64,000 nt of DNA, taken from an uncultured Methanosarcinales archaeon. Lineage in GTDB: Archaea > Nanobdellota > Nanobdellia > Woesearchaeales > ARS49. The notes below the pieces were generated by a model, which saw nothing but the letters and a program-made list of their open reading frames with translations, had not been told where the DNA came from and made no database searches. Within the stretch, counting starts at the first letter, position 1. Each line of letters begins with the position of its first letter. Below are positions 1,543-58,800 of the stretch, piece by piece. Both the position numbers and the translations under genes were made by a program. The DNA lies in the NCBI GenBank assembly GCA_964445485.1, contig CAYUPS010000001.1, positions 76,941-140,940 of the forward strand, written 5' to 3'.

Positions 1543-2886
1543 ATGGCAGGGATTTTCAAAGCGTACGACATCCGCGGGATATACCCGTCGCAGATCAACG
1601 AGGAAGCGGCGTACCAGATCGCCAAGGCGACCATCGCGTCGCTCTGCGGCCCCTCCGGCCCCGCCGAGATCGCGGTCGGCCACGACATGCGCACATCCTC
1701 TCCTTCGCTCTATGAATCATTCATCGCGGGCGCGCGCGATGCGGGCGCAGACGTCTTCGCGCTGGGAGAGTGTTCGACACCGCTGCTGTATTTCGCCGCG
1801 CGCGACCGGCACGGCGCCATGATCACTGCCTCGCACAACCCGAAAGAGTACAACGGGATCAAGCTGCAACGGCACGGGCCCTCGCCCGTGAGCATGGGCT
1901 CAGGGCTGGAGGGCATCGAGACGCGCGTCGCGAACAAATCATCCGTGACGTACCGCGCGCCCGGCAGATGCTATGCTGACAGCGTGCTCCACCGCTACAT
2001 GCACGCGTTGTGGAAGCAGAGCGGCGCCATGCGCATCGCGCCCATGTCCGTCGCCATCGACGCGGGCAGCGGGATGGCGGGCATGGTCACTCCGCACATC
2101 TTCGCGGACCTGCCCATCAGGATGACACCGATGAATTTCGAGCCGGATGGCACGTTCCCCGTGCATGAGGCCAATCCGCTCAAGAAGGAGAACACCAAGG
2201 ATCTGTGCGCGCGCGTCAAGGCGCTCGGGTGCGACCTGGGCCTCGCGTACGACGGCGACGCCGACCGCGTCTTCTTCATCGATGAGAGGGGCACCCATGT
2301 GCCGTCCGAGCAGATCATCTGCCTGCTGAGCCAGGAATTCCTGCGCCTCCACCCGGGCAGCACCATCGTCTATTCTGTCAATTGCAGCAAAATAGTGCCC
2401 GAGACCATCGCATCCCTCGGAGGCACTGCCGTGCGCGAGCGTGTCGGCGTCTCTCTCATGAAAGCGCGCATGCGCAAGGAGGACGCCATCTTCGGATCAG
2501 AGGTCTCCGGCCACCACACGTTCCGCGACTTCTACAACATCGACAGCGCTGACTTCGCGGCGCTGACAGTGATGCGCATCATGAGCGAGAAAGGCAAGCG
2601 GCTCTCCGAGCTCATCGCGCCGTACAAGAAGTACGCGAAGACGGACGAGCTGAACTGGCACGATATCAAGGATATCCCCTGCACGCTCGCCCGCATCGAG
2701 AACGCCTATGCCGGCGCGAAGACAGACAGGCTCGATGGCTTGACGGTGGAATTCCCGGACTGGTGGTGCAACATCAGGCCGTCGAACACCGAGCCGATAC
2801 TGCGCGCGGTCGTCGAGGCTCAGGATGACGCCATGCTCGCCGGCAAAGTGGCGGAGCTTGAAGGGCTCATCATGCAGAAGCCCTGA
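1543..2886 (+). CDS. glmM: phosphohexomutase (phosphoglucosamine mutase / phosphomannomutase, alpha-D-phosphohexomutase superfamily)
   Basis: 447 aa; active-site TASHNP(KEYNGIK) motif, Mg-binding DGDADR, sugar-binding GSEVSGH; T-rich stretch/ATG context upstream. Confidence 0.9.
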   Translation: MAGIFKAYDIRGIYPSQINEEAAYQIAKATIASLCGPSGPAEIAVGHDMRTSSPSLYESFIAGARDAGADVFALGECSTPLLYFAARDRHGAMITASHNPKEYNGIKLQRHGPSPVSMGSGLEGIETRVANKSSVTYRAPGRCYADSVLHRYMHALWKQSGAMRIAPMSVAIDAGSGMAGMVTPHIFADLPIRMTPMNFEPDGTFPVHEANPLKKENTKDLCARVKALGCDLGLAYDGDADRVFFIDERGTHVPSEQIICLLSQEFLRLHPGSTIVYSVNCSKIVPETIASLGGTAVRERVGVSLMKARMRKEDAIFGSEVSGHHTFRDFYNIDSADFAALTVMRIMSEKGKRLSELIAPYKKYAKTDELNWHDIKDIPCTLARIENAYAGAKTDRLDGLTVEFPDWWCNIRPSNTEPILRAVVEAQDDAMLAGKVAELEGLIMQKP

Positions 2887-2932
2887 GCAGCCCGCACAAC
2901 CTTTAGAAATGGGCCGCAGCTCTGGCGGCATA

Positions 2933-4258
2933 ATGGCTCCTCGGAAGAAAAAGACAGACACAGACGGCTCTGCGGCACCTGCCGCCGAGAAGAAGCCCGC
3001 CGCGGAGAAAAAAGCAGCCGCTGTCGACACGCACGGCCAGCCGACAGTCAACATCGGCATGATCGGCCATGTCGACCACGGCAAGACCACGCTCGTGCGC
3101 GCGCTCTCCGGCAAGTGGGCTGACACGCATTCTGAGGAGATCAAGCGCGGCATCACCATCAGGCTCGGCTATGCCGACGTCACCATCTACAAGTATCCCG
3201 GCGCAGAGGGGCCCGACTCGCTGGGCCTCACACAGAAGAACAAGGACGGTGTCGAAGGCGTCCCCATGCGCCGCATCTCCCTTGTCGACGCGCCCGGCCA
3301 CGAATCGCTCATGGCGACGATGCTCTGCGGCGCATCCATCATGGACGGCGCGCTGCTCCTCATCGCCGCCAACGAGACATGCCCGCAGCCGCAGACTGTC
3401 GAGCACCTGACTGCGCTCACCATCACCGGCATCGACAAGCTCATCGTGGTCCAGAACAAGGTGGACATCGTGAGCGAAGAGGATGCCAAGAAGAACTACG
3501 GCGAGATCAAGGAGTTCCTCAAGGGGACGAAATACGCCGATGCGCCGATCGTCCCGCTCGCCGCGCTCCACAACGTCAACGTGGACGCGCTCCTCGAGGC
3601 AGTCAACGAATACATCCCCGAGCCGCAGCGCGACCTCGCCAAACCGCCGCGCATGCTCGTCGCGCGCTCCTTTGACATCAACAAGCCAGGAACGCTGCCC
3701 AAGAGCATGGTCGGCGGCGTCATCGGAGGCGCCCTCAAGGAAGGCGAGCTGCGGACGGGCGATGAGATCGAGATCCTGCCCGGCTACGAAGTCGAGGAGC
3801 GCAACGCGAAGGTCTGGAAGCCGCTGCGCACGACCATCAAGAAGATCATGACCGGCGGCACGGACGCAGAGGTCGCGAGACCCGGCGGCACCTTCGCAAT
3901 CCTCACCACGCTCGACCCCAGCGTCGTCAAGTCAGACAAGCTTGTCGGATCGCTCATCGGCCATGTCGGCAAGCTGCCGCCGGTGTGGAACACGCTCACG
4001 CTCGAGGTCACGCTGCTCGACCGCGTCGTCGGCGCCAAGGATCAGCTCGTCGTCTCGCCGGTCAAGCTCGGCGAGATGCTCATGCTGAATGTGAACGCGG
4101 CGGCGACAGTCGGCGTCGTCAAGGACATCAGCAAGGGGCTCGTGAAGGTCGCCCTGCGCCGGCCTGTGTGCGCGGCGATCGGCGCGCACGTGACGCTGGC
4201 GCGCAATGTCGGCCAGCGCTGGCGCCTCATCGGCTATGCCGCGATCAAAGGCGCGTAA
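2933..4258 (+). CDS. eif2g: translation initiation factor aIF2 gamma subunit
   Basis: GTPase G1 motif GHVDHGKTTL, NKVD, zinc knuckle region; N-terminal Lys/Ala/Pro-rich extension (MAPRKKKTDTDGSAAPAAEKKPAAEKK); TTTAGAAA at 2902-2909 ~28 nt upstream of ATG 2933 (alternative in-frame ATG 2909). Confidence 0.92.
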   Translation: MAPRKKKTDTDGSAAPAAEKKPAAEKKAAAVDTHGQPTVNIGMIGHVDHGKTTLVRALSGKWADTHSEEIKRGITIRLGYADVTIYKYPGAEGPDSLGLTQKNKDGVEGVPMRRISLVDAPGHESLMATMLCGASIMDGALLLIAANETCPQPQTVEHLTALTITGIDKLIVVQNKVDIVSEEDAKKNYGEIKEFLKGTKYADAPIVPLAALHNVNVDALLEAVNEYIPEPQRDLAKPPRMLVARSFDINKPGTLPKSMVGGVIGGALKEGELRTGDEIEILPGYEVEERNAKVWKPLRTTIKKIMTGGTDAEVARPGGTFAILTTLDPSVVKSDKLVGSLIGHVGKLPPVWNTLTLEVTLLDRVVGAKDQLVVSPVKLGEMLMLNVNAAATVGVVKDISKGLVKVALRRPVCAAIGAHVTLARNVGQRWRLIGYAAIKGA

Positions 4259-8908: not shown

Positions 8909-9055
8909 ATGAATGACCTCCAACGTTCAACCCGAACGCGACCTGTTGCGTACGCTATCGCAAGGATTATATAAATTTTTCGTTGCCGTGCCCACTGCGG
9001 AGTGGCATATCATCCGGCGAAACATTTAAATGCTCGCAACCCGCGAGAGAAACGC

Positions 9056-9343
9056 ATGGCATCGGAGGGAGTCTCTGGCGAGGACCGCGTCGCAGTCATC
9101 GTGCTCGCCCTGATCGTCATCGTGTCCATCTTCGCGCTCGTGATGCTGTTCACCAACGGCAAGGGAGCAGAAGGCAGGTACGTGACATGGGACACGTTCC
9201 GCAAGGCACCCGGCGGCGCCTACGGCGGCACCTCATGGGAAGAGCACACGATCCGCACATACTATCCGACGAGGTCATCGGAGCACGCGATGAACGCCTC
9301 GAGCGCCACGCGCCCGCCGCTCTCCAAAGCGTATTACCGATAG
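9056..9343 (+). CDS. small single-pass membrane protein, paralog 1 of a three-member family
   Basis: ATG 9056 within track ORF 9002 (GTG); ATTTAAAT at 9024-9031 ~28 nt upstream; N-term MASEGVSGEDRVAVIVLALIVIVSIFALVMLF similar to 11120 and 11376 products. Confidence 0.5.
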   Translation: MASEGVSGEDRVAVIVLALIVIVSIFALVMLFTNGKGAEGRYVTWDTFRKAPGGAYGGTSWEEHTIRTYYPTRSSEHAMNASSATRPPLSKAYYR

Positions 9344-9389
9344 TTTCTAGGATAGCTTTTTAAATGGTCGCGGACTTCTCCGGACTCCC

Positions 9390-9680
9390 ATGACTGACCG
9401 CATCGGCGGCGAGCGCCGCAAGACCCGCAGGCTCATGCGCAAGCCCATCCGCAAGCGCGGCAAGCTGAGCCTCACCGCGTTCTTCTCGACGTACAAAGTC
9501 GGCGAGAAGGTCGTGCTGTACTGCGAGCCGGCCTACCAGCGGGGCATGTACCACCTGCGTTTCCACGGCCGCATCGCGACCATCGAAGGCAAGCGCGGCT
9601 CGTGCTACCAAATCTCGGTGCGCGACGGCGGCAAGATGAAGACATGCATCGTGCACCCTGTGCACCTCAAGAAGGCCTGA
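9390..9680 (+). CDS. rpl21e: 50S ribosomal protein L21e
   Basis: 96 aa MTDRIGGERRKTRRLMRKPIRKRGKLSLTAFFSTYKVGEKV... matches L21e; TTTTTAAAT at 9357-9365 ~29 nt upstream. Confidence 0.9.
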   Translation: MTDRIGGERRKTRRLMRKPIRKRGKLSLTAFFSTYKVGEKVVLYCEPAYQRGMYHLRFHGRIATIEGKRGSCYQISVRDGGKMKTCIVHPVHLKKA

Positions 9681-9686
9681 TATCCC

Positions 9687-10028
9687 ATGAAACTCAAGAT
9701 CGTCTCCGAAGCGCCCATCGGCCTCGTCGATGTCAAGGACATCCTCGAGAAGGCGAAGGAGCGCGACACCGCGTTGAATTTCCGCGCGCAGAAGACGCTC
9801 GACTATCTCCAGCAGAACGTGACGATGAGCGCCAAGAAGGTCAAGGAGCTCGCGGACGCGATCGCCAAGCTCGAGATTCCGCGCCTCAAGGACCAGCACA
9901 TCATCAAGGTCTGCGACACGCTCCCGGCGACCGCCGAGGACGTGAAGCTCGCGCTGCAGGGCTACAACGTGACTGTCACGAAGGAGAACCTGCAGAAGAT
10001 CGCGGATGCCGTCAAGGGCGCGCTCTGA
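9687..10028 (+). CDS. rpo4: DNA-directed RNA polymerase subunit Rpo4 (RpoF, Rpb4 homolog)
   Basis: 113 aa helical protein immediately after L21e; conserved archaeal L21e-RpoF-DUF655 gene order. Confidence 0.8.
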   Translation: MKLKIVSEAPIGLVDVKDILEKAKERDTALNFRAQKTLDYLQQNVTMSAKKVKELADAIAKLEIPRLKDQHIIKVCDTLPATAEDVKLALQGYNVTVTKENLQKIADAVKGAL

Positions 10029-10110
10029 TTCTCCGCTGACTTGATTCGCGCATAATTTTATATACTTCCCGCCTCTTGGGAATGACAGAATATGGGAGCC
10101 ATTAGCGGCC

Positions 10111-10698
10111 ATGCAACAGAACGGACCATTGGACCCTCACCCCAAGCTGGTGCGGGAAGAGCACGCGATTGTCCTGGACTTCTTGCCGCACGGCTATCCG
10201 TTTGATCCGACACCGAGCCATCGGAAGAATCCCATCATCCAGGCGATAGGCCGCGACCGCTTCGTGCTGCTTGAGCTCGTCGCCAAGAAGGAGGCGTTCG
10301 TGCAGCCCCTGCAGGAAGTGTATATCGGTGAGGGCAAGCGCGACCAGGTCAATCACGTGGCGGGCAGGATCGCTCTCGAGAAGCTCACGAGCACGGCCAA
10401 GACCGAGCTCGAGTTCGTGATCAAGGATATCATCAAGAAGCGAGAGGCGGATTTCGTGCAGTTCTTCAATACGGCGCACCCGCTGTCGTTGCGCGTGCAC
10501 CAGCTCGAGATGCTGCCGGGCCTCGGCAAGAAGCATCTGTGGGAGATTCTCGATGCGCGGCAGGACAGGCCGTTCGTGAGCTTCGCGGATCTGCGTGAGC
10601 GCGTGAAGCTCATGCCTGATCCTGAGAAGATGCTGCTGCGCCGCATCCTGAATGAGATCGCGGGAAAGGAGAAGCACCCGCTCTTCACGGACGTGTGA
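10111..10698 (+). CDS. DUF655 family RNA-binding protein (OB fold + helix-hairpin-helix)
   Basis: 195 aa; conserved third gene of the L21e-RpoF operon; followed by T-rich stretch 10721-10736. Confidence 0.8.
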   Translation: MQQNGPLDPHPKLVREEHAIVLDFLPHGYPFDPTPSHRKNPIIQAIGRDRFVLLELVAKKEAFVQPLQEVYIGEGKRDQVNHVAGRIALEKLTSTAKTELEFVIKDIIKKREADFVQFFNTAHPLSLRVHQLEMLPGLGKKHLWEILDARQDRPFVSFADLRERVKLMPDPEKMLLRRILNEIAGKEKHPLFTDV

Positions 10699-10720
10699 TT
10701 CTGGCGTCATAGACAGGCAC

Positions 10721-10736
10721 TTAATTCTTTTTGTAT
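10721..10736 (+). terminator. oligo-T terminator after DUF655 gene
   Basis: TTAATTCTTTTTGTAT directly after stop 10696-10698; archaeal termination at T-tracts. Confidence 0.5.
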
Positions 10737-10859
10737 ATAAATTAAAATATATAAAAATAATCGATAGGACAGCCAACACACAAATATTTTTATACACGAA
10801 TAGAGTTCGACGCCCTAAGACAAGGGGGTCTCACAGAACTCTCGCGTCGAGGTGTGAAG

Positions 10860-11003
10860 ATGACAAAGGGACGATGCATGAAGTGCAAAAAGGAAGTCGA
10901 GATGAAGGATGTCAAAGAAGTCACCATGAAGAACGGCATGCGCGCAGCCAAAGGCACGTGCGCCTGCGGCACCAAGGTCTTCCGCATCCTGGGCAAGGCA
11001 TAA
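10860..11003 (+). CDS. 47-aa lysine-rich zinc-ribbon protein (DUF5679-like; CxxC...CxC)
   Basis: ATG 10860 to TAA 11001-11003, translation MTKGRCMKCKKEVEMKDVKEVTMKNGMRAAKGTCACGTKVFRILGKA; below ORF-track size cutoff; T-rich terminator follows. Confidence 0.5.
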   Translation: MTKGRCMKCKKEVEMKDVKEVTMKNGMRAAKGTCACGTKVFRILGKA

Positions 11004-11020
11004 ACACGCCAGCCCCGATC

Positions 11021-11046
11021 CTTTTTCTTTTCTTCTTCTCATTCTC
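11021..11046 (+). terminator. T-rich terminator after 47-aa zinc-ribbon gene
   Basis: CTTTTTCTTTTCTTCTTCTCATTCTC. Confidence 0.5.
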
Positions 11047-11119
11047 ATAAAATTTATATACCCCCAGAGCCACGGCTCCCCCACGCGCCAGACAGCGCGA
11101 AAAAAAGGAGGCAAGACAA

Positions 11120-11383
11120 ATGGAGAACGACAAAGCAATCCTCATCGCCGTTCTCGGTGCCGTCTCCGTGCTCGCCATCATCGGCCTCGTGCTGATGTTC
11201 AACAGCGCAAGAACGGTCGGCATGGCAGGCGTCTACGTAGGAGACTACGGCTCGCCCAACATGCCAGGCATCGGCAGCGAAGTGTACTTCGAAAGAGAAT
11301 GGGAACCGTCATACCTCGAACGCCAAGCCACCGCGGCACAAGGCGGCCGAGACGCAGAACAGAGGGTGGGCAACTATGGATGA
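11120..11383 (+). CDS. small single-pass membrane protein, paralog 2
   Basis: 87 aa; SD AAGGAGG 11105-11111; N-term MENDKAILIAVLGAVSVLAIIGLVLMF; Gly/Tyr-rich C-terminal part. Confidence 0.55.
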   Translation: MENDKAILIAVLGAVSVLAIIGLVLMFNSARTVGMAGVYVGDYGSPNMPGIGSEVYFEREWEPSYLERQATAAQGGRDAEQRVGNYG

Positions 11384-11669
11384 AGCAAAAACAATCGCAC
11401 TCGCCATGCTCGGCATCGTCTCCGTCCTGGCCATCATCGGCCTCGTGCTGATGTTCAGCACCGGCAGCAGCACAGGCGCATACGCATTCAGCTCTGACGT
11501 CGGCGCATCCCACACAGGACCCGGCGAAGGCTACGGCGGCGATCGGCGCTACGGCGGCCTCACCAACCCGTGCGGCGACCAGCCCCGCGGCGGCGCCAGC
11601 GCAGCCCAAGTCCAGGCATGGATCCAGTGCATGCAGGACTACAACAGCAACCGCTACGGCTACAACTAA
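11376..11669 (+). CDS. small single-pass membrane protein, paralog 3
   Basis: 97 aa; ATGGATGA overlap with paralog 2; N-term MDEAKTIALAMLGIVSVLAIIGLVLMF; SD-like GAGGGTGGG upstream; oligo-T terminator 11681-11702. Confidence 0.55.
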   Translation: MDEAKTIALAMLGIVSVLAIIGLVLMFSTGSSTGAYAFSSDVGASHTGPGEGYGGDRRYGGLTNPCGDQPRGGASAAQVQAWIQCMQDYNSNRYGYN

Positions 11670-11680: not shown

Positions 11681-11702
11681 TTTTTCTTTTTTTCCTTTTT
11701 CT
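11681..11702 (+). terminator. oligo-T terminator after small membrane protein paralog 3
   Basis: TTTTTCTTTTTTTCCTTTTTCT 12 nt after stop. Confidence 0.55.
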
Positions 11703-12410: not shown

Positions 12411-15352
12411 GGCGAGATGCCCTGCAGCAGGATCGAGTGCAACGACGAATTCTTTGAAACACCGCTCTTCGCAGGGAAGAGCGACTCAGCGATGGACTCA
12501 TTCAGGACATCCGCCGGCGCACCCGAGCCATTCTTCACCATAGGCGGCAGGGCCACGTTAGCAGGAACGGAATTCTTCGCCGCAGACTGCCAGCCATGCA
12601 CCACTCGGTGCACCGTGATGCGCTGCGGCAGGCGCGCCTCGAACACCTTCTCGAACTGCGGCACGCTCTCCCCAGAGAACAGGCGCACGAGCGTCATGTC
12701 AAGAGCAGCATCATCGACCAGCGCGGACCAGTACGAGCCGTTCACATCCTTTATCACCAGCACGCTGAAATCTGATTTCGCATCAGCGTACTTGCGCACG
12801 CGCCGCACACCACCCTCCACCACCGCAAGCCCTGAGGGACGCAAGCCATTCTGCACCGCATCCATCGACGAGAGATTGACGAGGAAATTCGTGCACGCGA
12901 GAAGACCTGAGCCAGCAGACGAGCAGTACGCGACATTCGAGACATTGATGCCTGCCTCGCGGACGTGCGAATCCGCAAGCGAGAGAAGCTTCAGCCGCGC
13001 ATCAGACTCGCTCAGGTTGAACCTGCTCGAGAGCACACGAGTGGCGTTATCCATGTCCAACCCTGCCGTCGCCTCAATCATCGCGCCATCAACAAGCGAC
13101 CAGGAAGCGAGAGCCATCATCTGCGGCAGCTTCTGGAACGCATCCTCAGTAATCACGAGATACGCAGGCTGTGGCGAGCAGTCAGTCAGGTCTATCGCGC
13201 TCTGCGGCAAACCATTATCCCTCGCCATCGCTACTGCAGAGGAGCGGTTGATCGCCGCGCGCAGCAGCGTCGTCTCATCTCCGAATGCATCGAGCGCGGC
13301 ATGGATGGTGCCGCAATTCTCCATGCGCAGTATCGCCTCGCTCTCAACCAGAGATGTTGAGACCATCGCGCGCGGGAACCAGTAGGAGTGTGCATTGTCG
13401 AACGCAGCATTGTCCCACAGCGTCGCTTTGCCAGCCACCGCCTGCCACACATACCCCTCATCCCACCACGCATCGATGATCGCAGAACCATTGACCTCCC
13501 GTTCAAAGAAGAGTCCGACATCGGTGTGCGCGGCGGTCACCGCAGGCAGCATAGACGTCTGAGCCCAGTACGGAAGGAATGGAGGCAGGAATACCGAGAG
13601 TATGACTACTGCGACGACGCACTGCGTTCCCCAGCGGGGAAGCCTGAAATGCACTGCTGCAGGAATCCTGCAGAGCGCAGGCCACACTGCGTGCAGGCCG
13701 AGAGCGAAGAGGAATAGCGCGGGAGCCGCGAGGTAGAAGCTGAAGCGGCGGGCGAGAAGCGTCGCGATAAAGACAGGCACAAACCAGCATGCGGCCAGGA
13801 GGAGCGCGGGCGGAGGGGAGAGCCTGCGGAGTCCCCGATACGCGAGATACGCCAGCGTCGCCGCGAGAGAGAGCAGCATCACGTAGCCGCCGAGGAAATT
13901 GACAAGGACTGGGAAGGGCGTTCTCTGCAGCTCACTGATTGACCCGATGAGCGAAGGATAGACCGCATTGAGCGTGCGTCCCGTCAAGTACCACTCAGCC
14001 CGCTGAACGAACTGCGTTCCAAGCAGCCAGTACGCTGCGAGAGCGCATGCCGCAACAAAGCCGGCGAGCGTGCCATAACTCCAGCGTTCGCGGCGGAACA
14101 CCACCACGCGGAGTATCCTGAAAAATCCGAACACTGCAGCGAACATGCAGAGGACGATGAGGATATATGGCCACCCCTGCCAGATGTTGCTGAACACCCA
14201 TAGGCTCGCGGCGAACGCGACAGCATACGCCGCTCGCGGGCGCCATGAACACGCCGTGCAAGCACAGACTGCGAAGAGTACGGCAGCAATCGAGAGCATG
14301 ATCGCGGGACTCTGCGTATCGGTGTTACCCGCGAACGTGCCTAAGAAGAACAGCGGGTGTACTGCGAAAAGAACTCCCGCAATGCCCGCGATCGCCAATG
14401 AGCGAGTCAACCTGAGCACGAGCAGCACGAACAGCAGCGCAGCGAGAGTGCCGATGACTGCGGGGAGAAAGAACAGCGATTCGAGCAGAGTGGATGAGCT
14501 GGCCAACGCAACACCGAGCAACCCGTCAGATGCGTACCCCGCGCTTTGCCCGGCGAAACGATTGTTGAAGCGGTGGTAGGCAGCCAGTATCTTCGGCCAC
14601 CAGTTCAAATCGACAGAGACACCATAGGGCGCAATACGCAGCCAGTCATGCTTCCTGCCTGCGCTATCGATTGGCGCCTCCGACCCAGTCTCGACTATAT
14701 TGCGCGCCATGCGGTAGTACAGGTACGTATCCGCTTTGTAGAGGAACGGCTGTAGCGTGTCCGCTGACCCCTGAGCATAGAGCGATTTGAGCGATTCCAC
14801 ATCCTGCGCGACCCTCGCGGCGTACGCGGGCGACGCGCGCAGCTCGGCGAGGCGCGCATTCACCTCCCTCTCCAGACCCGCATCAGAGATGTACGGATAG
14901 GCTGCCTTGGTCTCCGCGATTGCCTGACGGACTGCATCGTTGTCGGCGAGAGCTGCAGCACGGGCATCCAACTGCGGAAGATATGCGGTTCGCGTGAGAG
15001 TCATCCATGCCGCGCCTCCGACAACCAAGAAGACAAGAACCAACGCCCACCACCGGAAGGCAGGACTGTCGCGCGCGCGTTGCTCCGGCGTATCGAGAGG
15101 GACCGTGGTGCTCGTCACCACAACATCAGTATCGTCTTCGCGCTCGCGCAGAATCTTGACAGGGCGAACAGCACGGGACTTGGCGAGATCGGTAGCTTTG
15201 GGCGCGTGACGCGTGACTGGCTTGACAGTCGCCTTATCAGGAGTCTCCCCGCTCGCCGCGCGCTCGGCAGGCGCTTCTTTCTCTTTCTCCTTGCGCTGCG
15301 CATCGAGAGTCTTGCCTATGTCAAGCGATGCGCCGAAGTCGAACTCTCTCAT
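12407..15352 (-). CDS. aglB: archaeal oligosaccharyltransferase AglB (STT3 family)
   Basis: Polytopic N-terminal half plus soluble C-terminal domain with WWDEGY (WWDYG-type) motif; first external loop KADTYLYYRMARN (DxYxYR). Track ORF extends to 15544 but overlaps divergent gene; ATG 15352 preferred, TATATAAA (15390-15397, minus orientation) upstream. Confidence 0.88.
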   Translation of the reverse strand: MREFDFGASLDIGKTLDAQRKEKEKEAPAERAASGETPDKATVKPVTRHAPKATDLAKSRAVRPVKILREREDDTDVVVTSTTVPLDTPEQRARDSPAFRWWALVLVFLVVGGAAWMTLTRTAYLPQLDARAAALADNDAVRQAIAETKAAYPYISDAGLEREVNARLAELRASPAYAARVAQDVESLKSLYAQGSADTLQPFLYKADTYLYYRMARNIVETGSEAPIDSAGRKHDWLRIAPYGVSVDLNWWPKILAAYHRFNNRFAGQSAGYASDGLLGVALASSSTLLESLFFLPAVIGTLAALLFVLLVLRLTRSLAIAGIAGVLFAVHPLFFLGTFAGNTDTQSPAIMLSIAAVLFAVCACTACSWRPRAAYAVAFAASLWVFSNIWQGWPYILIVLCMFAAVFGFFRILRVVVFRRERWSYGTLAGFVAACALAAYWLLGTQFVQRAEWYLTGRTLNAVYPSLIGSISELQRTPFPVLVNFLGGYVMLLSLAATLAYLAYRGLRRLSPPPALLLAACWFVPVFIATLLARRFSFYLAAPALFLFALGLHAVWPALCRIPAAVHFRLPRWGTQCVVAVVILSVFLPPFLPYWAQTSMLPAVTAAHTDVGLFFEREVNGSAIIDAWWDEGYVWQAVAGKATLWDNAAFDNAHSYWFPRAMVSTSLVESEAILRMENCGTIHAALDAFGDETTLLRAAINRSSAVAMARDNGLPQSAIDLTDCSPQPAYLVITEDAFQKLPQMMALASWSLVDGAMIEATAGLDMDNATRVLSSRFNLSESDARLKLLSLADSHVREAGINVSNVAYCSSAGSGLLACTNFLVNLSSMDAVQNGLRPSGLAVVEGGVRRVRKYADAKSDFSVLVIKDVNGSYWSALVDDAALDMTLVRLFSGESVPQFEKVFEARLPQRITVHRVVHGWQSAAKNSVPANVALPPMVKNGSGAPADVLNESIAESLFPAKSGVSKNSSLHSILLQGISP

Positions 15353-52139: not shown

Positions 52140-52814
52140 TCAGCCAAGATCGATCGCGACCCGCGCGACGAGCGGTGGCCAATCATCAGCCGCGGCGTCC
52201 TGGACGGCGATGACAAAGGTTGTCTCGCCATAAGGCATGATGTCGATGTCCGCGTCAGGGCGTGCGATGCTTGAGAAATCAAGCAGGTATGTCGTCGCGA
52301 TGCCTTTGGCGACGCTGTCCGCGATGCCCATGATGCGTCCGAACGGGGCGTTGATCGTGGCTGAGGCGGAGCGCAAGGCCTGCGGCACTGCGCCGCCCGT
52401 GACGCTCGCCGTGATACTCACCGTTTCCGCACCCAGCGAGACTGTCGCTTGGGAGGGGGCATAGGCCAGGTCCATCAGGTCCATGCCTGCGACGCTGTCG
52501 ATGCAGGTCTTGAGCGCGGCGCCCGCATACCGTCTCAGTTCCGACTCCATGAACTGCTGCGAGGGCGCGACGCGGGCGCGGTTGCGGTAGTGGAACGCCA
52601 CCGTCGCACGCTCAGCGTAGAGCGCGTCACCGTGGCCGTAGATGAAGCCGCCGTTGCGCGCGAGCGTGTGCACGCCGGCTCGCATGGCATGCGCAAAACA
52701 TGAGGACACTTGATTGGTCGCGCTCGCCTGCGCGATCGCAATCCATGCGACGCTCGCGACAACCGCCGCAACTATTATGATGAGCATGATGAGCTTCATG
52801 GCGGGGGTTTTCAT
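52140..52814 (-). CDS. signal-peptide hypothetical protein translationally coupled to the giant protein
   Basis: ATG 52814 (M19 of track ORF) overlaps giant-gene stop (ATGA); N-term MKTPAMKLIMLIIIVAAVVASVAWIAIAQASA; no domain recognised. Confidence 0.6.
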   Translation of the reverse strand: MKTPAMKLIMLIIIVAAVVASVAWIAIAQASATNQVSSCFAHAMRAGVHTLARNGGFIYGHGDALYAERATVAFHYRNRARVAPSQQFMESELRRYAGAALKTCIDSVAGMDLMDLAYAPSQATVSLGAETVSITASVTGGAVPQALRSASATINAPFGRIMGIADSVAKGIATTYLLDFSSIARPDADIDIMPYGETTFVIAVQDAAADDWPPLVARVAIDLG

Positions 52815-55800
52815 GGTGCGCCTCCGACGGGAACGGGCGGTGCTGCGACGGGCTGTGCCCAGCGCCACGTGACCTCGTAATCATCCCGATACTTCCAGGG
52901 GTTGGCGATGTTGCGCTGGAAGAAACCCTTTCCGTTGGCGCTCTCTCCCGAGAAGTAATCCTTGCCTGCCTTCTCGAGCTCATCGAGGTAGCCGGCGCTG
53001 CCTTGGGCGGCATCCAAGATGTACCTGCGGCCGTTGCGGATGTATTCGGCCCATTGATGGCCTGCCGCATCGACGATCGTGGAGAGGCCCTTGCGCAAGT
53101 AGCCGCGGTTGATCGCTTCCGAAATGATGTGCGCGATAATCGGGGCTTGGTGCCTGCAGACGCCTCCGACGCCGATGCAGGAAGAGCCGATATCGATGAA
53201 TTCTGTCGAAGCCTCGCCGAGATACTTGCCCAGCCCTGAGCTGTACGGAACCCTGCGGGTGACGAGAGCGTTGACACCGCTGAGGATCTCCTCCTCGATC
53301 TGCGCCTGTGTCGCGCCGGACGCTTTCATCTCGCTCGTGAGCTTGCCCATGGCCTCCATGACCTCGTCAGTCAGGGGTTTGAGCGATTTCGGATCGATGA
53401 CCTGCAGTTCGGTCGAAGGATTGACGATGACTTGCAAAGCGCCGCCGATGGGCTTTCCCGGTCTCGTGGCTGGCACGTTGCCTTCCAGGAAGGACTCTTG
53501 GATGTCGGGGCGGGTCACCATCTCGGAGCCGAAGTCCTGCTTGGAGATGCGTTTCGCGCGATCGCGCAGACCCCATCCCATCGGCAGTTCTTCGATGAGC
53601 GAATCCACGTTCTCGCCGCGGGATGCCGCCCGCTCGAGATTGGCGAGATTCTGGAGATCTTCAGCATCCACCGAGCCCGCACCGTAATACCTGTTCAGGT
53701 CGTCGGCGTACATGCGCAATTGGGTATACGTACGGGCATCGGAAACATCCGGGAGTTTCGGCAGGATCTCCACCAGGTCCTCTTCGGCTTCGATGACGGC
53801 CGCGCGTTCTGCTTTGGCGAGAGACGCGGCCGCATCGACTTCGCGCAGTGCGTTCTGCACAACGCCCGAGTCAGCGGTGATGCCTCTCGCCCTGAGCGCC
53901 TCTTCGATCGCGCCGGACGTGTGCGTCTTGATGCCCTTGAGCGCTTCGGAGACCTCGTCGACGCTCTTGCCGAGCTTGCTCGCCAGGTTCTTCGCATACG
54001 CCTCGGCAATGGATGATTTGGTGAACGTGCGCATGGCGCCGGGCAAGCCAGCGCCGGCGAGGATGCCCGTAGCCATAGTGACTGTCGGGTTGTCCGTGCC
54101 GATGCCGCTGAAGGTCAGGATGGCGCCGGTCGCGGCATCGATCATGACTGATTCCGCCATGCCCGCGAGCGCGCCGCCAAAGCCCGTCGCGCCGGTGAAG
54201 CTCATGCCCGCGCCGCCGGTGAGGAGCGCGAGGGCGATCGCGCCGGGGCTCGCAGCGTCGTCGACGAAATCGGCGACTTTGGCCAGGTCACTGATGACTG
54301 AATCGGGGAGCGAGCTCATGGCGATGCTGGAGATCATGTTGCTCGGGAGGAAGGGTGACGGACCGCTCATGCCTGCAAGGTAGCCGAGGAATTTGCGGTC
54401 GCGCTCGGTGCGCAGCGCGTTGACGCTGTCCTCATCAAGCATCTCCTGCATGCCGATGTCGACTTCCCAGAGGACGTCGTTCGACTTGAACTCGCCCGGG
54501 GAGGAGCTGACCGCTTCCTTGCCGATGAGTTTGCGGATGTCTCCGCTGTAGGGACTGTCATAATACGTCTTGCGGGCGTCCTCGCGCGCTTCGGCGAGGA
54601 ACTCCTTGAGCGGGTAGAGCTGTCCGGGATCGAGCTTGTACTGGCCGTCCGTGATCGGGGCCATGTCGCCGATGGGCTTGCTGCCGTCGTTGCCGTGGCC
54701 TGATCTGATGAGCATGTCGCGCGCCATGCGGTCGTCATCCTTGCTGTTGAGCCAGCGCTCTATCTGCTCCGCAGACATGCCCGTCTGCTTGAGGGCCTGG
54801 AGCGCGTACATGCCTCGCGAGTATGCCTTGCCTTCGGCGCTGAGCGTCTCGGCCGCCTTCTTGACCTCCTCGAAACCGCCGGCGACATTGACGGCATCCT
54901 TGAGGAAGCCGCCGTTGAAGAGGCCGTTGAAGATGACCGCGCCGGCTTTCGCGACGCCTGCGGGGATGGTGAGACTCCCGCTGCGGCCTTGGAATGTCAT
55001 GCGGATGTCCTGGTAGTCATCGCCGACCGCTTCGCTCATTCGGTCGGAATAGCCTTCTGTGCTGTCACGCAGCGCATCGAGCCGCTGCTCCTTCGCGTAC
55101 AACTGGCCTTGGAGCTTGCTGAAGCCGCTCGCGCCGATCGCGTCGCGGTCGTTCTTGACCGAGTCTCCTGCCATGCTCAGGAGGCCGAGCTGCTCATCCA
55201 GGGCGTCCGCGCGCTCGAGCAGGCGTTCGCGCTCCTCGATGCTGAGACCGGACGATGCGAGCTGCCTGTCGATATCAGCAAGTTGGCGTTGCAGGGCGTC
55301 GCCCGCCGCCTTGATCTCGCCGATCAGGTTGTCCGTGACCGCGAGAGCATCGCCGACCTTGCCGTGCGAGGCGTACCAGCTCGCGAGCTCGCGTGAGAGC
55401 GTGATCTTCTTGGATGAGATGCCGTTCGCGCTCGCGCCGCCAGTGTACTCGCGCTTGACGGCGACGCCCTCGCCCGTGCGCTCGAGGGTCGTCTCGGCGA
55501 GACGCAGGCGGGCGCGCAGGGAATTCTCGACGATGCTGCGATCAGGCGCGACTTCGCCGGGCGTGTCCGCGTACCTCTGTTTCGCGTTCTCATAATGGAT
55601 GCGGTTGGCGAGCTGGGCGTCGAGCAATGCGGCGGTCCCTGCCGCAGTATTGCCTTGCGCGCCGCCGATCATGCTGGAGAGGCTCTTCTCGAGGCTGTCG
55701 ATGTTGCCTGACTGCCAGAAGCTGCTGAGCAGGGGGTCGTTGTCCATGCGCCGTTTGCTCTCGTCGAATTTCTGCTGGATGAACTTGCGGCGCTCTTCGC

Positions 55801-58800
55801 GCTGGGCCGCGGGCACGCCTTGGCTGCCGTCGGCGGAGACTTCCCAGTCGAGCGGCAGGTTCTCGGCGTTGCGCTGCACGAACGAGTTGCGCAGCGCGTT
55901 GGCCCAGACCCTGTCGATGGAGCCTGCGCCGAATGCGCCGTCGATGAACGCCTCGACCTCAGTCATCGCCTGGATGTGCGCTTCGTAACGCTTGATCGAT
56001 CCGTCGGCGGAGGTGATTGTGTTCTTCTTGGCGATGAGTTCGTAGAGCTTCTGGAGCGCGGCGGCGATGAGTTCGGGGCGATCGTGGTTGCGGATCATCT
56101 GGCGGATCGCTTCCTTGAGCGATTCGATGTCATTGCCGACAAGGGCCTTGGCGTCCGCGGGCGAGGCGACATGGACATCCTTGTTGCCTTCGGCCGGCGA
56201 TGAGTAGGTCTGCGAGAGATCGCTCGCGATTGTCAGCGTCGGGCCTCCTGTGCCGTCCTTGATAGCCTGCGGCTTGTTCTCGACGCGGTCGCTGCCGGTC
56301 TCGCCGGCGATCGCCGCGAGCGAGGTGGCATCCTCCTTGATGCGCTGGCCCGTCGGCGAATTCGTGACGGAGACGGCGAGCTGCGTGCCAACCTGCTTGT
56401 GGGCGAAATTGTCGCTGTCCGAGCGGGCGTCGACACCGATGCTGAACTGCGCAGTGGTGATCTCCGAGGCCGGATTGCCGATGGAGAACACCTCATTGGT
56501 GTCGCCGTCGGGCGATGACGTGCGGTGGAGGAGGGCACCATTGTTGGCGGTGTAGGCGATTGTGTTGGTGACAAGCGATGCAGTCATCGCGTAGAGCACA
56601 AGGTCGTGCGTGATCTTGTCGCCGACCATCTTGATGAATCCTGCGTTCGGCGAGCCGAGCGCGGACACGGACATGCCGAGCGCGCCACCGCCGATGTTCA
56701 GGCTCGTCGTGCCGCTCTCGACCTTCGCGTAGAGGGCGTCATCGGAATAGCCGACAGTGTTGCCGCTCGTTTCGAGGGCGGAGGAGACCGCTTGGCCTTC
56801 CGGGACGAACTTGACAGGCGCGGTAGACGTGAGCTCCAGCTGGTTCTTCTCATCGGTGTAGGCGGCGGCTTGGCCGGGAGCGGGCGTCTTTGGCGCGGGA
56901 GCGGAGCTCTGGGAGTCATCGCTGGAGGCTTTGGGCGGGGAGAGCGTCTTGCCGGCGTCTTCAAAGGATTGCGGCACGTGGCCGCCGCGGCTGCCTGTCA
57001 GTCCTTCGAAGAGTCCGAGGATTCCGTGGAGCATGCGTGTCGGGCTGTTGAGGTTCTCGAGTTCCAACAGGAAGCCTTTCTCGAACCATCCGCGGTTCTT
57101 GTCGTACGTGCTCTTGGCAGGGTTTTCCTTGTTGTTCCACCAGTCGCCCAGCGCGCCCCAACCCGCATCCCACGTGCTCGTTTTGGGCCAGGGGTTCTTG
57201 TCCTGCGCTTCGTATCCCGAGACGCCGACGCTGCCTTTGTCCGTCGTTGCGTCTACCCGTGTTTTCACTCCCTTGGTGCCGTCTTGCGTGAGGGTGAGTG
57301 TCAGGTCCTTGATGCTGTCGGCACTCTTGAATGCAGGGTCGTTGCGCAGGGCTTCCAATGCGTTGCGCAGCACGGTCTTGAGCCATTGCGCTTGTTCAGG
57401 GCTGAGCCCCTTGATGGGGCAGCCCAGCAGCTTGTCGAGCAGGCTCATGTCCAGGGTGTCGATCGCGTGTTTGAGGAGGCGCCTGATCGCATCGCCGCCT
57501 TTCGCATCAGGCGGTATGCCGATGCTGATCTTTGTCTCGCCTTCGCTGCCGTCGATGCGCAACTTGAACGGTTCCTTGAGGATGCTCTTGCCGTCCTTGC
57601 CCTTGAGGCCGATGGACGCTTCAAGCGCATAGGACGGGCCGCTCACGCGGTTCTCGCCCCAGACCGCACCCGGTTCAAAGACGGACGGCTTGGTGAGCGA
57701 CACCTTCAGGTCCTTGACATCAATAGAGATACCGGCGCCCGAAGTAGATTCGCAGGGGTCTTTGGGCTTCGCAGGAGCCTCTGGCGGCGTGGACGGAACG
57801 ATCTTGTCGAGCGCGTCACCTGCGCTCATGCCGCCGTTGTAGACCATGCCGTAGGAGAGTCCGAGGAGGTTGAAGACGTTGCGGACGATGGTGCCCGTGG
57901 TGGGTTTTTGGGACTGCTCTTCGAGCCAGCCGTTCGCGACGCTCTCTATATAGGATTCGGCGGCGCTGCTCGGGTCGCCGTCTGTCTTGATGTCCGCGCC
58001 GGCCGTTCCTTTGCCGGTGAAGGATGCAGGCAAGCCTTTGGGCGTGCGGCCGTTGACGGTGACTGTCACGTCCATCGAGCCGGGCGGCGTGCCGGGCTTG
58101 GGTTCGGGCTGGTCCTTGAGCTCGAGGTGGATGCTGTCGAGCGATTCGAGGCGTTTGAGGTCTGAGCCGAGGAGGGCGCGCAGGGGCTCGGAGAATATCT
58201 CCTTGAGCTTGTCCCGCATCTCGGGCTTCATGCCGGGGATGTCGTTGAGCGCGTCGAGGACGGAGTCGATGTGCGTGCGCAGGCCGTCCATGAGCGCCCG
58301 CTTGAATCCTTCGCTGACGAGGTCGGCGAAACCGGTCTTGTCGAAGTTGGGGAACTTGATGTCGATGGTGAGGACGCCCTTGCAGGACTTGAGCACGATC
58401 TCGATCGGGTGCTTCTCGATCTGCTCGCGGATGGTCTGCTTGCTCAGGAACTTGGCGAGCGGGTGCTCGTAGGGGAGGCGGCGCAGGAGCTCGTGCAGGT
58501 GCACGTTCGCGCGCAGGTTGTAGCAGTCGTCAGGTGTGCTCTCCATCTTCCATTGTATCTTGCGGTCGAATTCGCCCTCGTACTGGTAGTCTTCCTTGCC
58601 GTCGTAGGGTTTCTTGTCGACCTGGAGGTTGCTGCCGATGCGGTAGTCGCGGTGGTTCTCTGTCGGTCCTGCGCGGATGTGCACATCGAAGGGCTCTTCG
58701 CTGGGCGTCGAGCCGTCGCGGGGGATCATCTGCACGACGGTGCCGCCGGCATCGGTGGGGTTGCCGCGGGGGTTGTCCTCATCGGTGATGGTGGGAACGT

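What the first reader, a model, noticed from the sequence alone, without database searches (positions are those of the whole stretch)
9056..11669. Family of three paralogous small single-pass membrane proteins flanking the L21e-Rpo4-DUF655 operon
Genes at 9056, 11120 and 11376 (the last two overlapping by ATGGATGA) encode 87-97-aa proteins. All share a short acidic N-terminus and one TM helix of near-identical sequence (..D[KR].A[IV].[IL]A[MLV]LG.VSVLAIIGLVLMF), then divergent Gly/Tyr/Ser-rich extracellular tails (GDYGSPNMPGIG; GEGYGGDRRYGGL). The charged-then-hydrophobic N-terminus resembles archaeal class III (type IV pilin-like) signal peptides, although the processing site is not canonical. 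They may be minor pilins/adhesin subunits or a lineage-specific surface family.
Basis: partly seen in the sequence, partly recalled or inferred. Interest (0 to 1): 0.55.

Follow-up and report, generated by a model that had tools for sequence, protein, structure and literature searches.

The report
Woesearchaeal small proteins, invariant signal-anchor helix
The three small genes are real and belong to a large, unannotated family found so far only in Woesearchaeota-type DPANN archaea, whose members share an almost invariant N-terminal membrane helix and carry variable, glycan-avoiding tails that most likely lie outside the cell; they do not look like pilins.

Summary
The three ORFs exist as described: 9056-9343, 11120-11383 and 11376-11669, with an ATGGATGA overlap, flanking L21e-Rpo4-DUF655. 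P2 and P3 are clear paralogues. P1 is a divergent relative (7/21 helix residues identical), linked only by profile and iterative searches.

They belong to a large family with no Pfam or NCBIfam model: 136 clusters at 50% identity and more than 433 clusters at 90%. All named members are "hypothetical protein [Ca. Woesearchaeota]".

The family signature has four parts:
- a short acidic N-terminus ending in K/R
- a 21-residue helix, ..ILGIVAVIAIVGLVLLF, kept by purifying selection
- a [TSAV]-G dyad 6-8 residues later
- paralogue-specific tails

Tails carry even Cys counts (93/98). N-x-S/T sequons are 5-13-fold depleted (11 observed against 59 expected), while neighbouring proteins are normal. That points to exported, unglycosylated ectodomains.

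Evidence for pilins is weak:
- only 49% have a FlaFind-type site
- leaders are acidic
- no pilus genes lie in the window or among the commonest neighbour families in 562 kb of family loci
- the P3 model shows no pilin-type beta-sheet domain

In relatives, one conserved locus places family arrays directly after a bona fide LspA-type signal peptidase. This is suggestive, not proof.

Best reading: N-in/C-out signal-anchored small surface proteins of a new lineage-specific family.

The parts
9056..9343 (+). P1, 95 aa, a divergent family member. Acidic leader MASEGVSGEDR, helix at residues 12-32 (VAVIVLALIVIVSIFALVMLF), spacer TNGKGAEG, a Gly/Tyr-rich tail ending ..KAYYR, and one N-x-S sequon (NAS at residue 80).
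   Evidence: ORF. The same product is called by NCBI. Family HMM gives 16 bits, E 2.5e-4, against 4 bits for the next ORF. phmmer and jackhmmer link it to the family. It lacks both invariant Gly and the [TSAV]-G dyad.
9025..9031 (+). TATA-like box TTTAAAT about 28 nt upstream of the P1 ATG. This would give a leaderless or near-leaderless P1 transcript separate from the L21e operon.
   Evidence: Read directly from the sequence. It is an inference from archaeal promoter geometry and was not tested.
11053..11060 (+). TATA-like box TTTATATA upstream of the P2-P3 pair.
   Evidence: Read directly. Inference.
11107..11111 (+). Shine-Dalgarno-like GGAGG, 8 nt before the P2 ATG.
   Evidence: Read directly.
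11120..11383 (+). P2, 87 aa, a canonical family member. Leader MENDK, helix at residues 6-27 (AILIAVLGAVSVLAIIGLVLMF), spacer NSARTVG (V-G dyad), and a tail with the motif SEVYFEREWEPSYL that is conserved in orthologues.
   Evidence: ORF. Family HMM gives 47.8 bits. Orthologues are P0005 (57% identity) and P0006, with YF[EQ]REW[EQ]PSY conserved. It carries a FlaFind-like KAILIA motif.
11362..11368 (+). Shine-Dalgarno-like GAGGGTG inside the end of P2, 7 nt before the P3 ATG. With the 8-nt ATGGATGA overlap this suggests translational coupling.
   Evidence: Read directly.
11376..11669 (+). P3, 97 aa, a canonical family member. Leader MDEAK, helix at residues 6-27 (TIALAMLGIVSVLAIIGLVLMF), spacer STGSSTG (T-G dyad), a flexible Gly/Ser linker, and a C-terminal module with two Cys (NPCG...IQCMQ) ending ..RYGYN.
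   Evidence: ORF. Family HMM gives 58.5 bits. Orthologues P0011 and P0012 form a tandem pair in L082 with the Cys pair conserved. AF2 gives helix 3-30 (pLDDT 80-92), a disordered stretch at 34-57, and a C-terminal helix 76-94 (pLDDT 72-85).
11681..11702 (+). T-rich tract (tttttctttttttcctttttct) after the P3 stop. It is a likely archaeal terminator of the P2-P3 unit.
   Evidence: Read directly. Inference.

Best explanation
P1, P2 and P3 are real genes. They belong to a large, uncharacterised family of small proteins (about 60-240 aa) found so far only in Woesearchaeota-type DPANN archaea.

Each member has four parts:
- a 5-11 residue, net acidic N-terminus ending in K/R
- a 21-residue hydrophobic helix whose sequence is almost invariant across the family (consensus IALAILGIVAVIAIVGLVLLF), with small residues G-x2-A-x2-A-x2-G
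- a 5-8 residue polar spacer ending in a [TSAV]-G dyad
- a tail that is specific to each paralogue but conserved among its orthologues

Proposed mechanism (inferred, not shown). The helix acts as a Sec/SRP-targeted N-in/C-out signal-anchor. It places the tail on the outer face of the membrane. There the tail folds with disulfides and is kept free of N-glycans. The invariant helix stays in the mature protein as a shared membrane module, used for packing with a common partner, packing with other members, or recognition by a dedicated membrane enzyme. The tails then present different short motifs at the cell surface.

In this window, P1 is a separate, probably leaderless unit between sepF and the L21e operon. 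P2 and P3 form a translationally coupled pair with their own promoter after DUF655/DUF5679.
For: The family is real and large.
- A profile of P2, P0005 and P3 finds 136 clusters at 50% identity with E<=1e-3 among 1.84 billion proteins. Nearly all are 60-190 aa and match from residue 1-3.
- A family profile finds 433 or more clusters at 90% identity. All named ones are Ca. Woesearchaeota hypotheticals, and none has a Pfam domain.

The signature is strongly conserved.
- One helix Gly is present in 135/135 representatives, the second in 132/135, GLVL[LM]F in about 128-132/135, and the T-G dyad G in 127/135.
- The [TSAV]-G dyad lies 6-8 residues after the helix in most of 126/132.

The helix is held by purifying selection, not gene conversion.
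- The L082 pair has 33/36 identical residues with 14 synonymous differences.
- The L085 pair has 26/26 identical residues with 8 synonymous differences.

The tails appear to face outward.
- Cys counts are even in 93 of 98 Cys-containing tails.
- N-x-S/T sequons number 11 observed against 59 expected (z -6.7) in independent representatives, and 7 against 93 in the set. Reverse-motif, N-x-A/G and D-x-S/T controls are normal.
- In the same loci, non-family ORFs have 746 observed against 679 expected. N-anchored non-family ORFs have 115 against 115. Family ORFs have 16 against 73.
- Members with longer N-termini carry strongly basic extensions (for example MARRKVAAKKDNTIS..), which fits an N-in topology.

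Other support.
- A 21-residue hydrophobic span fits a membrane anchor better than a cleaved h-region (general knowledge).
- Tails carry motifs conserved among orthologues: P2 has YFEREWEPSY, and P3 has NPCG..C[LM]Q.
- The AF2 model of P3 shows a confident helix, a flexible linker and a small C-terminal module.
- Many paralogues sit at six or more conserved syntenic positions among housekeeping genes, in tandem arrays of up to 11.
Against: - No experimental or predictor-based (SignalP, DeepTMHMM) evidence for topology or lack of cleavage was available.
- The N-flank is net -0.2 and the C-flank net +0.8. On its own, the positive-inside rule would weakly favour the opposite orientation.
- The [TSAV]-G dyad is also conserved in divergent relatives whose helices differ. 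It therefore looks like a processing site, which favours the cleaved-signal rival.
- Near-invariance of the helix has no demonstrated partner.
- P1 lacks the three most conserved signature residues.
- The function of the tails is unknown.
Confidence: 0.45

Rival explanations
1. Cleaved, dedicated signal peptide. The invariant helix plus the [TSAV]-G dyad would be a specialised export signal. It would be removed on the outer face of the membrane, either by an LspA-type aspartyl signal peptidase acting on a Cys-less, lipobox-like x-[TSAV]-G site, or by signal peptidase I. This would release small, unglycosylated, disulfide-bonded proteins.
For: - The dyad residues match the allowed lipobox -2/-1 sets ([ASTVI][GAS]) and are about 95-98% conserved. 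The lipobox definition is quoted in PMC12462473.
- The dyad persists in divergent relatives with different helices (c10, c12, c20, c91).
- A bona fide LspA homologue lies directly upstream, on the same strand, of family arrays in 11 of 29 loci that have at least 1.5 kb of upstream sequence. It scores up to 3e-41 against Pfam PF01252, scores 1e-18 against S. aureus LspA 6RYO, and keeps the GNxxDR and FNxAD motifs.
- Peptidase_A8 is the commonest Pfam family among 150 neighbour proteins, at 11.
- Position P-3 is A/S/T/V in about 59% of members, which is compatible with signal peptidase I.
Against: - There is no Cys at +1. A Cys lies near the site in only 5 of 132 members, and known LspA enzymes need a lipid-modified Cys (general knowledge).
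- Canonical lipobox precursors exist in Woesearchaeota loci (15 of 1853 ORFs), so LspA probably has ordinary substrates.
- LspA adjacency is one of six or more conserved syntenic positions of the family. It sits inside a wider conserved block with glycogen synthase and enolase, so it may reflect inherited gene order.
- No LspA gene is in the window.
- Cleaved signal peptides are normally poorly conserved, and 21 hydrophobic residues is long for an h-region.
- K occupies P-3 in 15% of members.
Confidence: 0.28
2. Type IV pilin-like subunits. K-[GA] would be a class III cleavage site for a PibD/FlaK-type peptidase, and the conserved helix would form the core of a pilus.
For: - The family consensus ..E-x-K-G|I-A-L-A.. 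fits the FlaFind pattern. P2 has KA|ILIA. K/R occupies -2 in 114/132 members.
- A highly conserved hydrophobic N-terminus with variable C-terminal parts, and tandem paralogues, is the classical pilin pattern (general knowledge).
- No canonical Pilin_N or KGQxSxE-type N-termini were seen by regex in 1.7 Mb of Woesearchaeota DNA. If these organisms make pili, the pilins are unidentified.
Against: - The FlaFind-type site is present in only 65/132 members. Position -1 is G/A in 78/132 and N/S/T/E/Q/D in the rest, while other signature positions are 95-100% conserved.
- P1 and P3 lack the site.
- LspA-adjacent members such as MARRKVAAKKDNTISMIILG have N-T at -2/-1.
- Leaders are acidic.
- No hit to pilin or class III models.
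- No T2SSE-type Walker A motif was found in any ORF examined, and no pilus family is among the top 25 neighbour families.
- No pilus genes were found among the window ORFs that were scanned.
- Sequons are strongly depleted, whereas archaeal pilins and archaellins are typically N-glycosylated (general knowledge).
- The AF2 models show no pilin alpha-beta fold, and Foldseek finds no pilin. The type A model is of low confidence.
Confidence: 0.12
3. N-out/C-in small membrane proteins, inserted like the Pf3 coat protein, with cytoplasmic tails. Even Cys counts would then reflect metal binding.
For: - The N-flank is short and acidic, and K/R follows just after the helix (mean charges -0.2 and +0.8).
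Against: - Sequon depletion is specific to this family and absent from cytoplasmic neighbours, which implies exposure to the oligosaccharyltransferase.
- Members with basic N-terminal extensions exist.
- Cys patterns such as ..C..C..CC are not CxxC zinc knuckles.
- The G/Y/P/Q/S-rich tail composition is typical of exported proteins.
Confidence: 0.08
4. Chance ORFs or annotation artefacts in a GC-rich genome.
For: The ORFs are short, and overlapping alternative ORFs exist in other frames.
Against: - Family HMM scores are 48-58 bits for P2 and P3.
- Orthologues occur in other metagenomes with conserved tail motifs.
- Purifying selection is evident.
- There is a GC3 signature, SD and TATA-like signals, and a T-rich terminator.
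Confidence: 0.02

Closest known systems
Archaeal class III signal peptide proteins / type IV pilins (Pfam PF07790 Pilin_N, PF04021 Class_IIIsignal; small Epd- or Flp-type pilins)
   Same: Both have a short leader ending in K/R-G in about half of the members, followed at once by roughly 21 hydrophobic residues. Both show a strongly conserved N-terminus with variable C-terminal parts, many paralogues per genome, and frequent tandem arrangement.
   Different: - The cleavage-site residue is not conserved.
- The leader is acidic rather than basic.
- There is no similarity to pilin N-terminal models.
- A conserved [TSAV]-G dyad follows the helix.
- Sequons are depleted rather than used.
- No genomic link to pilus machinery was seen.
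- The models show no pilin fold.
Bacterial prolipoproteins processed by LspA (signal peptidase II, Pfam PF01252)
   Same: Both have an N-terminal hydrophobic segment followed by a conserved small-residue pair drawn from the same sets as lipobox positions -2 and -1. One conserved locus encodes family members directly after a true LspA homologue.
   Different: - There is no +1 cysteine and no L at -3.
- The dyad sits 6-8 residues beyond the hydrophobic segment rather than abutting it.
- The hydrophobic segment is TM-length and invariant.
Conserved-signal surface protein families (for example YSIRK-G/S signal peptides of Gram-positive cocci) and ordinary type II signal-anchor proteins
   Same: Both use an N-terminal targeting or anchor segment that carries a family-wide sequence motif, on otherwise unrelated exported passenger regions.
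   Different: Here conservation covers the whole 21-residue helix. The passengers are almost all very small. The lineage is archaeal. No sorting route is known.

Membership tests
Archaeal class III (type IV pilin-like) signal peptide proteins | [KR]-[GA] cleavage site immediately before the hydrophobic stretch (FlaFind pattern [KRDE][GA][ALIFQMVED][ILMVTAS]x3) | tested here: not met
   P2 matches (KAILIA). P1 (R-V) and P3 (K-T) do not. Across the family 65/132 match, and position -1 is G/A in 78/132.
Archaeal class III (type IV pilin-like) signal peptide proteins | Positively charged leader | tested here: not met
   Mean net charge of the N-flank is -0.18. The commonest value is -1, in 73/132. 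The window leaders are MASEGVSGEDR, MENDK and MDEAK.
Archaeal class III (type IV pilin-like) signal peptide proteins | Sequence match to curated pilin, archaellin or class III N-terminal models | tested here: not met
   No such Pfam or NCBIfam hit appeared at E<=0.1 (Pfam, window proteins) or E<=10 (all other scans), for the three window proteins and 10 other members.
Archaeal class III (type IV pilin-like) signal peptide proteins | Prepilin peptidase (A24) and pilus ATPase/platform genes in the genome or neighbourhood | tested here: inconclusive
   None were found among the roughly 30 window ORFs scanned with Pfam. No T2SSE Walker A motif was found in the 1.7 Mb examined. None is among the top 25 Pfam families of 150 neighbours. 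The rest of the genome, beyond the 64 kb window, could not be read.
Woesearchaeal invariant-helix small-protein family (defined here; no curated model) | N-terminal helix signature ..L-G-x2-A-x2-A-x2-G-L-V-L-[LM]-F starting within about 12 residues of Met1 | tested here: met
   P3 scores 58.5 bits and P2 47.8 bits with an HMM built without window sequences. P1 is only partly compliant. It keeps the same register and the ..LVMLF end, but has Ala at both Gly positions, scoring 16 bits at E 2.5e-4. It is linked to the family by jackhmmer.
Woesearchaeal invariant-helix small-protein family (defined here; no curated model) | [TSAV]-G dyad 4-9 residues after the helix | tested here: met
   P2 has V33-G34 and P3 has T33-G34. 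P1 has E39-G40, so the feature is not met for P1.
Woesearchaeal invariant-helix small-protein family (defined here; no curated model) | Small size, with a tail that has an even Cys count and few or no N-x-S/T sequons | tested here: met
   The proteins are 87-97 aa. Cys counts are 0, 0 and 2. Sequons number 1 (P1), 0 and 0.
Bacterial-type lipoproteins (LspA substrates) | Lipobox [LVI][ASTVI][GAS]C with an invariant +1 Cys | tested here: not met
   P1, P2 and P3 have no Cys near the helix. Across the family a Cys lies within helix end -5 to +15 in 5/132 members.
Sec signal peptide cleaved by signal peptidase I | Basic n-region, 7-15 residue h-region, small uncharged residues at -3 and -1 | tested here: inconclusive
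   The n-region is acidic and the h-region is 21 residues. Position -1 is G in 126/126 members that carry the dyad, but -3 is A/S/T/V in only about 59% and K in 15%. No SignalP-type predictor was available.

The most novel reading that the evidence does not exclude
Woesearchaeota may possess a previously unrecognised protein-sorting system. In it, an LspA-type aspartyl signal peptidase would process a dedicated, Cys-less signal. That enzyme class was recently stated to have no identified archaeal homologue (PMC12462473). The signal would be the invariant helix plus x-[TSAV]-G. It would be carried by dozens of small, deliberately unglycosylated, disulfide-bonded exoproteins per genome. P1-P3 would be cargo of that system.
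Probability: 0.15. Interest if true: 0.85.

Novelty: new variant of a known kind. Interest (0 to 1): 0.62.

Why it matters
DPANN archaea live attached to other cells, and their surface biology is almost unknown. This family is one of the most stereotyped sequence signatures seen in these loci, and it occurs in many copies per genome. Yet it is annotated only as 'hypothetical protein' and has no curated model.

Two features are unusual together:
- a helix kept nearly invariant by selection
- tails that specifically avoid N-glycosylation sites

They point to a defined but unknown role at the membrane surface, such as a coat component, a docking module or processed exoproteins.

The work also turns up bona fide LspA homologues on archaeal contigs. 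This bears on the open question of how archaea process lipoproteins. Finally, the helix motif gives a simple handle for finding and counting these genes in any Woesearchaeal genome.

Tried and rejected
- Word-indexed homology search with P3 found only itself. P2 found one orthologue. The exhaustive profile search was what revealed the family.
- The look-up of the window's own contig failed because it is not on record. The rest of the 194 kb NCBI contig could therefore not be scanned for LspA, PibD or pilus genes.
- The genome-contig scan with DUF655 returned 80 Woesearchaeota or Nanoarchaeota loci, with at most 64% identity. Only one clear family member lay near the operon, L001 13574-14026. 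The position next to L21e-Rpo4-DUF655 is thus not a conserved feature.
- Regex scans for T2SSE Walker A motifs and for Pilin_N or KGQxSxE N-termini found nothing. These are crude motifs and do not prove absence.
- The AF2 model of the LspA-adjacent 'type A' member was poor (pLDDT 52), and Foldseek against PDB gave only noise with E>2. No conclusion was drawn beyond 'no pilin hit'.
- Literature searches for the motif, for Woesearchaeota plus signal peptidase II, and for small hypervariable Woesearchaeal proteins found nothing specific.
- I first read the LspA adjacency as a strong functional link and then downgraded it. Gene-order clustering showed the family at several other conserved positions, and showed LspA sitting inside a wider syntenic block. 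Canonical lipobox precursors also exist in these archaea.
- I considered gene conversion as the cause of the identical P2/P3 helix and rejected it as a general explanation. Tandem pairs elsewhere keep the protein sequence through many synonymous changes.

Full report
**1. Observation**

- P1, 9056-9343, 95 aa
- P2, 11120-11383, 87 aa
- P3, 11376-11669, 97 aa

All are on the + strand. Their exact products are proteins called in an NCBI record, each a singleton cluster on one 194,476-bp contig.

P2 and P3 overlap by ATGGATGA. Between P1 and P2 lie four genes:
- L21e (PF01157, 1.2e-25)
- Rpo4 (PF03874, 8.6e-07)
- DUF655 (2.5e-63)

SepF lies upstream on the minus strand. An MBL-fold gene and an AglB/STT3 gene that heads a glycosylation cluster lie downstream.

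Codon-position GC fits coding (GC3 0.71-0.81).

Reading the DNA directly gives the following signals:
- a TATA-like box (TTTATATA, 11053-11060) and a GGAGG 8 nt before the P2 start
- an SD-like GAGGGTG before the P3 start
- a T-rich tract after P3
- a TTTAAAT box about 28 nt before the P1 ATG, suggesting a leaderless transcript

These signals are inferences.

**2. Are the three paralogous?**

P2 and P3 clearly are. They match at E 2.5e-8 among 1037 window ORFs and share 13 consecutive identical residues.

It shares 7/21 helix residues, and direct E values are 0.003-0.1.

Homology is nevertheless supported:
- A family HMM built without any window sequence scores P3 at 58.5, P2 at 47.8 and P1 at 16.0 bits (E 2.5e-4). 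The best other window ORF scores 4.0, despite many membrane proteins in the window.
- P1 alone finds 43 family ORFs in unrelated loci.
- jackhmmer from P1 retrieves P2 and P3 (3e-16 and 4e-14). From P3 it retrieves P1 (8.5e-8).
- No other member exists in the window.

**3. What they belong to**

The window comes from a GC-rich (62%) Woesearchaeota-type DPANN archaeon. The closest DUF655 loci are Woesearchaeota or Nanoarchaeota MAGs at 64% identity or less.

Word-based searches nearly failed. An exhaustive profile search then found 136 clusters at 50% identity with E<=1e-3. Nearly all are 60-190 aa and align from their first residues.

A family profile found 433 or more clusters at 90% identity. 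Every named one is 'hypothetical protein [Candidatus Woesearchaeota archaeon]', and none has a Pfam domain. Pfam and NCBIfam scans of 13 members found nothing relevant. Literature searches found no description.

Column statistics give the signature:

M-A-[ED]-E-x-K-G-[IV]-A-L-[AV]-I-L-G-I-V-A-V-[IL]-A-[IV]-V-G-L-V-L-[LM]-F, then 5-8 polar residues ending in [TSAV]-G.

Conservation at key positions:
- first helix Gly, 135/135
- second helix Gly, 132/135
- F, 129/135
- dyad G, 127/135
- K/R before the helix, 114/132
- the following residue is G in only 71/132

The helix is held by purifying selection rather than gene conversion. Tandem pairs keep 33/36 and 26/26 residues through 14 and 8 synonymous changes respectively.

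More divergent relatives exist with different helices but the same TM-x-T-G-[AL]-[VY] layout (c10, c12, c20, c91). P1 resembles these.

P2 has orthologues with a conserved YF[EQ]REW[EQ]PSY tail motif (P0005, P0006). P3 has orthologues with a conserved Cys pair (P0011 and P0012, tandem in L082).

**4. Where the tails are**

Four observations bear on this.
- Cys counts in tails are even in 93 of 98 Cys-containing representatives, mostly 2 or 4. This suggests disulfides.
- N-x-S/T sequons are strikingly depleted. Independent representatives have 11 observed against 59 expected (z -6.7). The set has 7 against 93. The reverse motif, N-x-[AG] and D-x-[ST] behave as expected.
- The depletion is family-specific. 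In the same loci, all other ORFs have 746 against 679, other N-anchored proteins have 115 against 115, and family ORFs have 16 against 73. Selection against sequons only makes sense if the tails meet the oligosaccharyltransferase, that is, outside the cytoplasm.
- Members with longer N-termini have strongly basic extensions, which fits N-in.

AF2 on P3 gives three regions:
- a confident helix at 3-30
- a disordered linker at 34-57
- a small C-terminal module with a helix at 76-94

I therefore infer an N-in/C-out topology with an exposed, unglycosylated tail. The flank charges alone (-0.2 and +0.8) do not favour this. That caveat is noted.

**5. Pilin hypothesis**

Several points speak against it.
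- Only P2 of the three has a FlaFind-type site. Across the family the site is present in 65/132 and the critical -1 residue is G/A in 78/132, while other signature residues are 95-100% conserved.
- Leaders are acidic.
- LspA-adjacent members have N-T at the equivalent positions.
- No pilin model matches.
- No T2SSE-type Walker A motif occurs in the window, in 562 kb of family loci or in 1.1 Mb of DUF655 loci.
- No pilus family is among the 25 commonest Pfam families of 150 neighbouring proteins.
- Sequon avoidance contrasts with the usual N-glycosylation of archaeal pilins and archaellins (general knowledge).

In its favour are the conserved hydrophobic N-terminus with variable tails in tandem paralogues, and the absence of canonical pilin N-termini in the DNA sampled.

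I rate it at about 0.12. The genome-wide presence of a prepilin peptidase could not be tested.

**6. Genomic context in relatives**

I looked up members on long contigs and ran a metagenome scan that returned 58 loci. Together these gave 142 family ORFs in 65 loci, with tandem arrays of up to 11 (L107).

The commonest neighbour family is Peptidase_A8 (LspA), at 11/150 with best E 3e-41. It lies directly upstream on the same strand in 11 of 29 loci with enough upstream sequence. The cluster order is: coiled-coil protein, LspA, family type A, family type B, further members, glycogen synthase.

The enzyme is a true LspA. It matches S. aureus LspA 6RYO at E 1e-18 and keeps the GNxxDR and FNxAD motifs. 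It also sits on contigs carrying eIF-1A, eIF-2alpha, S27e, L44e and GINS.

A 2025 paper states that no archaeal Lsp homologue had been identified (PMC12462473).

The [TSAV]-G dyad uses exactly the residue sets of lipobox positions -2 and -1. This makes an LspA-processed, Cys-less signal an attractive idea.

I nevertheless hold it as a rival (0.28, including signal peptidase I cleavage), for these reasons:
- The family also occupies five or more other conserved positions among housekeeping genes, for example after oapABC-like genes.
- The LspA locus is part of a wider syntenic block.
- Canonical lipobox precursors exist in these archaea.
- There is no +1 Cys.
- The window has no LspA.

**7. Verdict**

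P1's similarity is overstated, but its homology is real.

The pilin interpretation is not supported.

The best explanation is a new Woesearchaeota-specific family of small signal-anchored proteins. They have an invariant membrane helix and exposed, glycan-free, disulfide-stabilised, paralogue-specific tails (confidence 0.45). Whether the helix is retained or removed at the conserved dyad is the key open point.

Novelty: a new, unannotated family that is a variant of known signal-anchor and sorting-signal themes.

Interest: 0.62, for three reasons:
- the size and stereotypy of the family
- the unusual sequon avoidance
- the link to archaeal LspA homologues

Noticed in passing
L085 9492-9932; L087 8916-9386; also L089, L092, L094, L104, L108, L109, L120, L121, L128, L129, L130, L132: Bona fide LspA (signal peptidase II, PF01252) homologues sit on Woesearchaeota contigs that also carry archaeal markers (eIF-1A, eIF-2alpha, S27e, L44e, GINS). 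They keep the catalytic GNxxDR and FNxAD motifs and match S. aureus LspA at E 1e-18. A 2025 Nat Commun paper states that no archaeal Lsp homologue had been identified.
   Followed up: partly
Family tails in P0005-P0254 and L081-L145: N-x-S/T glycosylation sequons are 5-13-fold depleted in the tails of this family. Other proteins of the same loci, including other N-anchored ones, are not depleted. The reason for avoiding glycosylation is unexplained.
   Followed up: yes
window 12407-33463: A large N-glycosylation and surface-polysaccharide cluster starts 1 kb downstream of P3. It includes AglB/STT3 (1045 aa, minus strand), two PMT_2-type glycosyltransferases, a Polysacc_synt flippase, Glycos_transf_4 and a UDP-glucose dehydrogenase.
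   Followed up: partly
window 47668-63985 (minus strand): Four ORFs run in a row on the minus strand: a 3724-aa giant ORF (52811-63985), a 242-aa and a 186-aa N-anchored protein, and a 1009-aa very Cys-rich protein (47668-50697). The 1009-, 242- and 186-aa proteins have no Pfam match; the giant ORF was not scanned. They look like a block of surface proteins. The 186-aa protein has a Tyr/Asn-rich, Cys-rich tail but is not a family member by HMM.
   Followed up: partly
window 10854-11003: A 49-aa DUF5679 zinc-ribbon gene with its own AT-rich upstream region sits between DUF655 and P2.
   Followed up: partly
L003 11110-13239; L016 1777-3903; L011 7731-9878; L013 15679-17811; L006 1921-4041: In many other Woesearchaeota, the gene after DUF655 is a protein of about 710 aa whose N-terminal helix weakly matches the family HMM (E 3e-4 to 5). 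In the window, that position is taken by DUF5679 plus P2/P3.
   Followed up: no
L107 9944-14670: Eleven family members lie in one uninterrupted tandem array. This was the largest expansion seen.
   Followed up: no
Neighbours of family genes in L081-L145 (alignment A5): GGDEF diguanylate-cyclase domains occur in 5 of 150 neighbour proteins on these archaeal contigs (best E 4e-45). This is unusual for archaea. OapB and OapC origin-associated proteins are also recurrent neighbours.
   Followed up: no
whole window: The window is 58-66% GC. Every other family-bearing or DUF655 locus examined from Woesearchaeota is 29-56% GC, and the closest DUF655 relative is only 64% identical. The source is an atypical, deep-branching, GC-rich lineage.
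   Followed up: partly
L001 13224-14029: The closest relative's locus has a tandem pair of small N-anchored ORFs between eIF-2gamma and phosphomannomutase. The second ORF (called gene 13622-14029; HMM hit on the stop-to-stop ORF 13574-14026) is a family member at E about 1e-7. In the window those two flanking genes are adjacent (1543-4258), with no family gene between them.
   Followed up: partly
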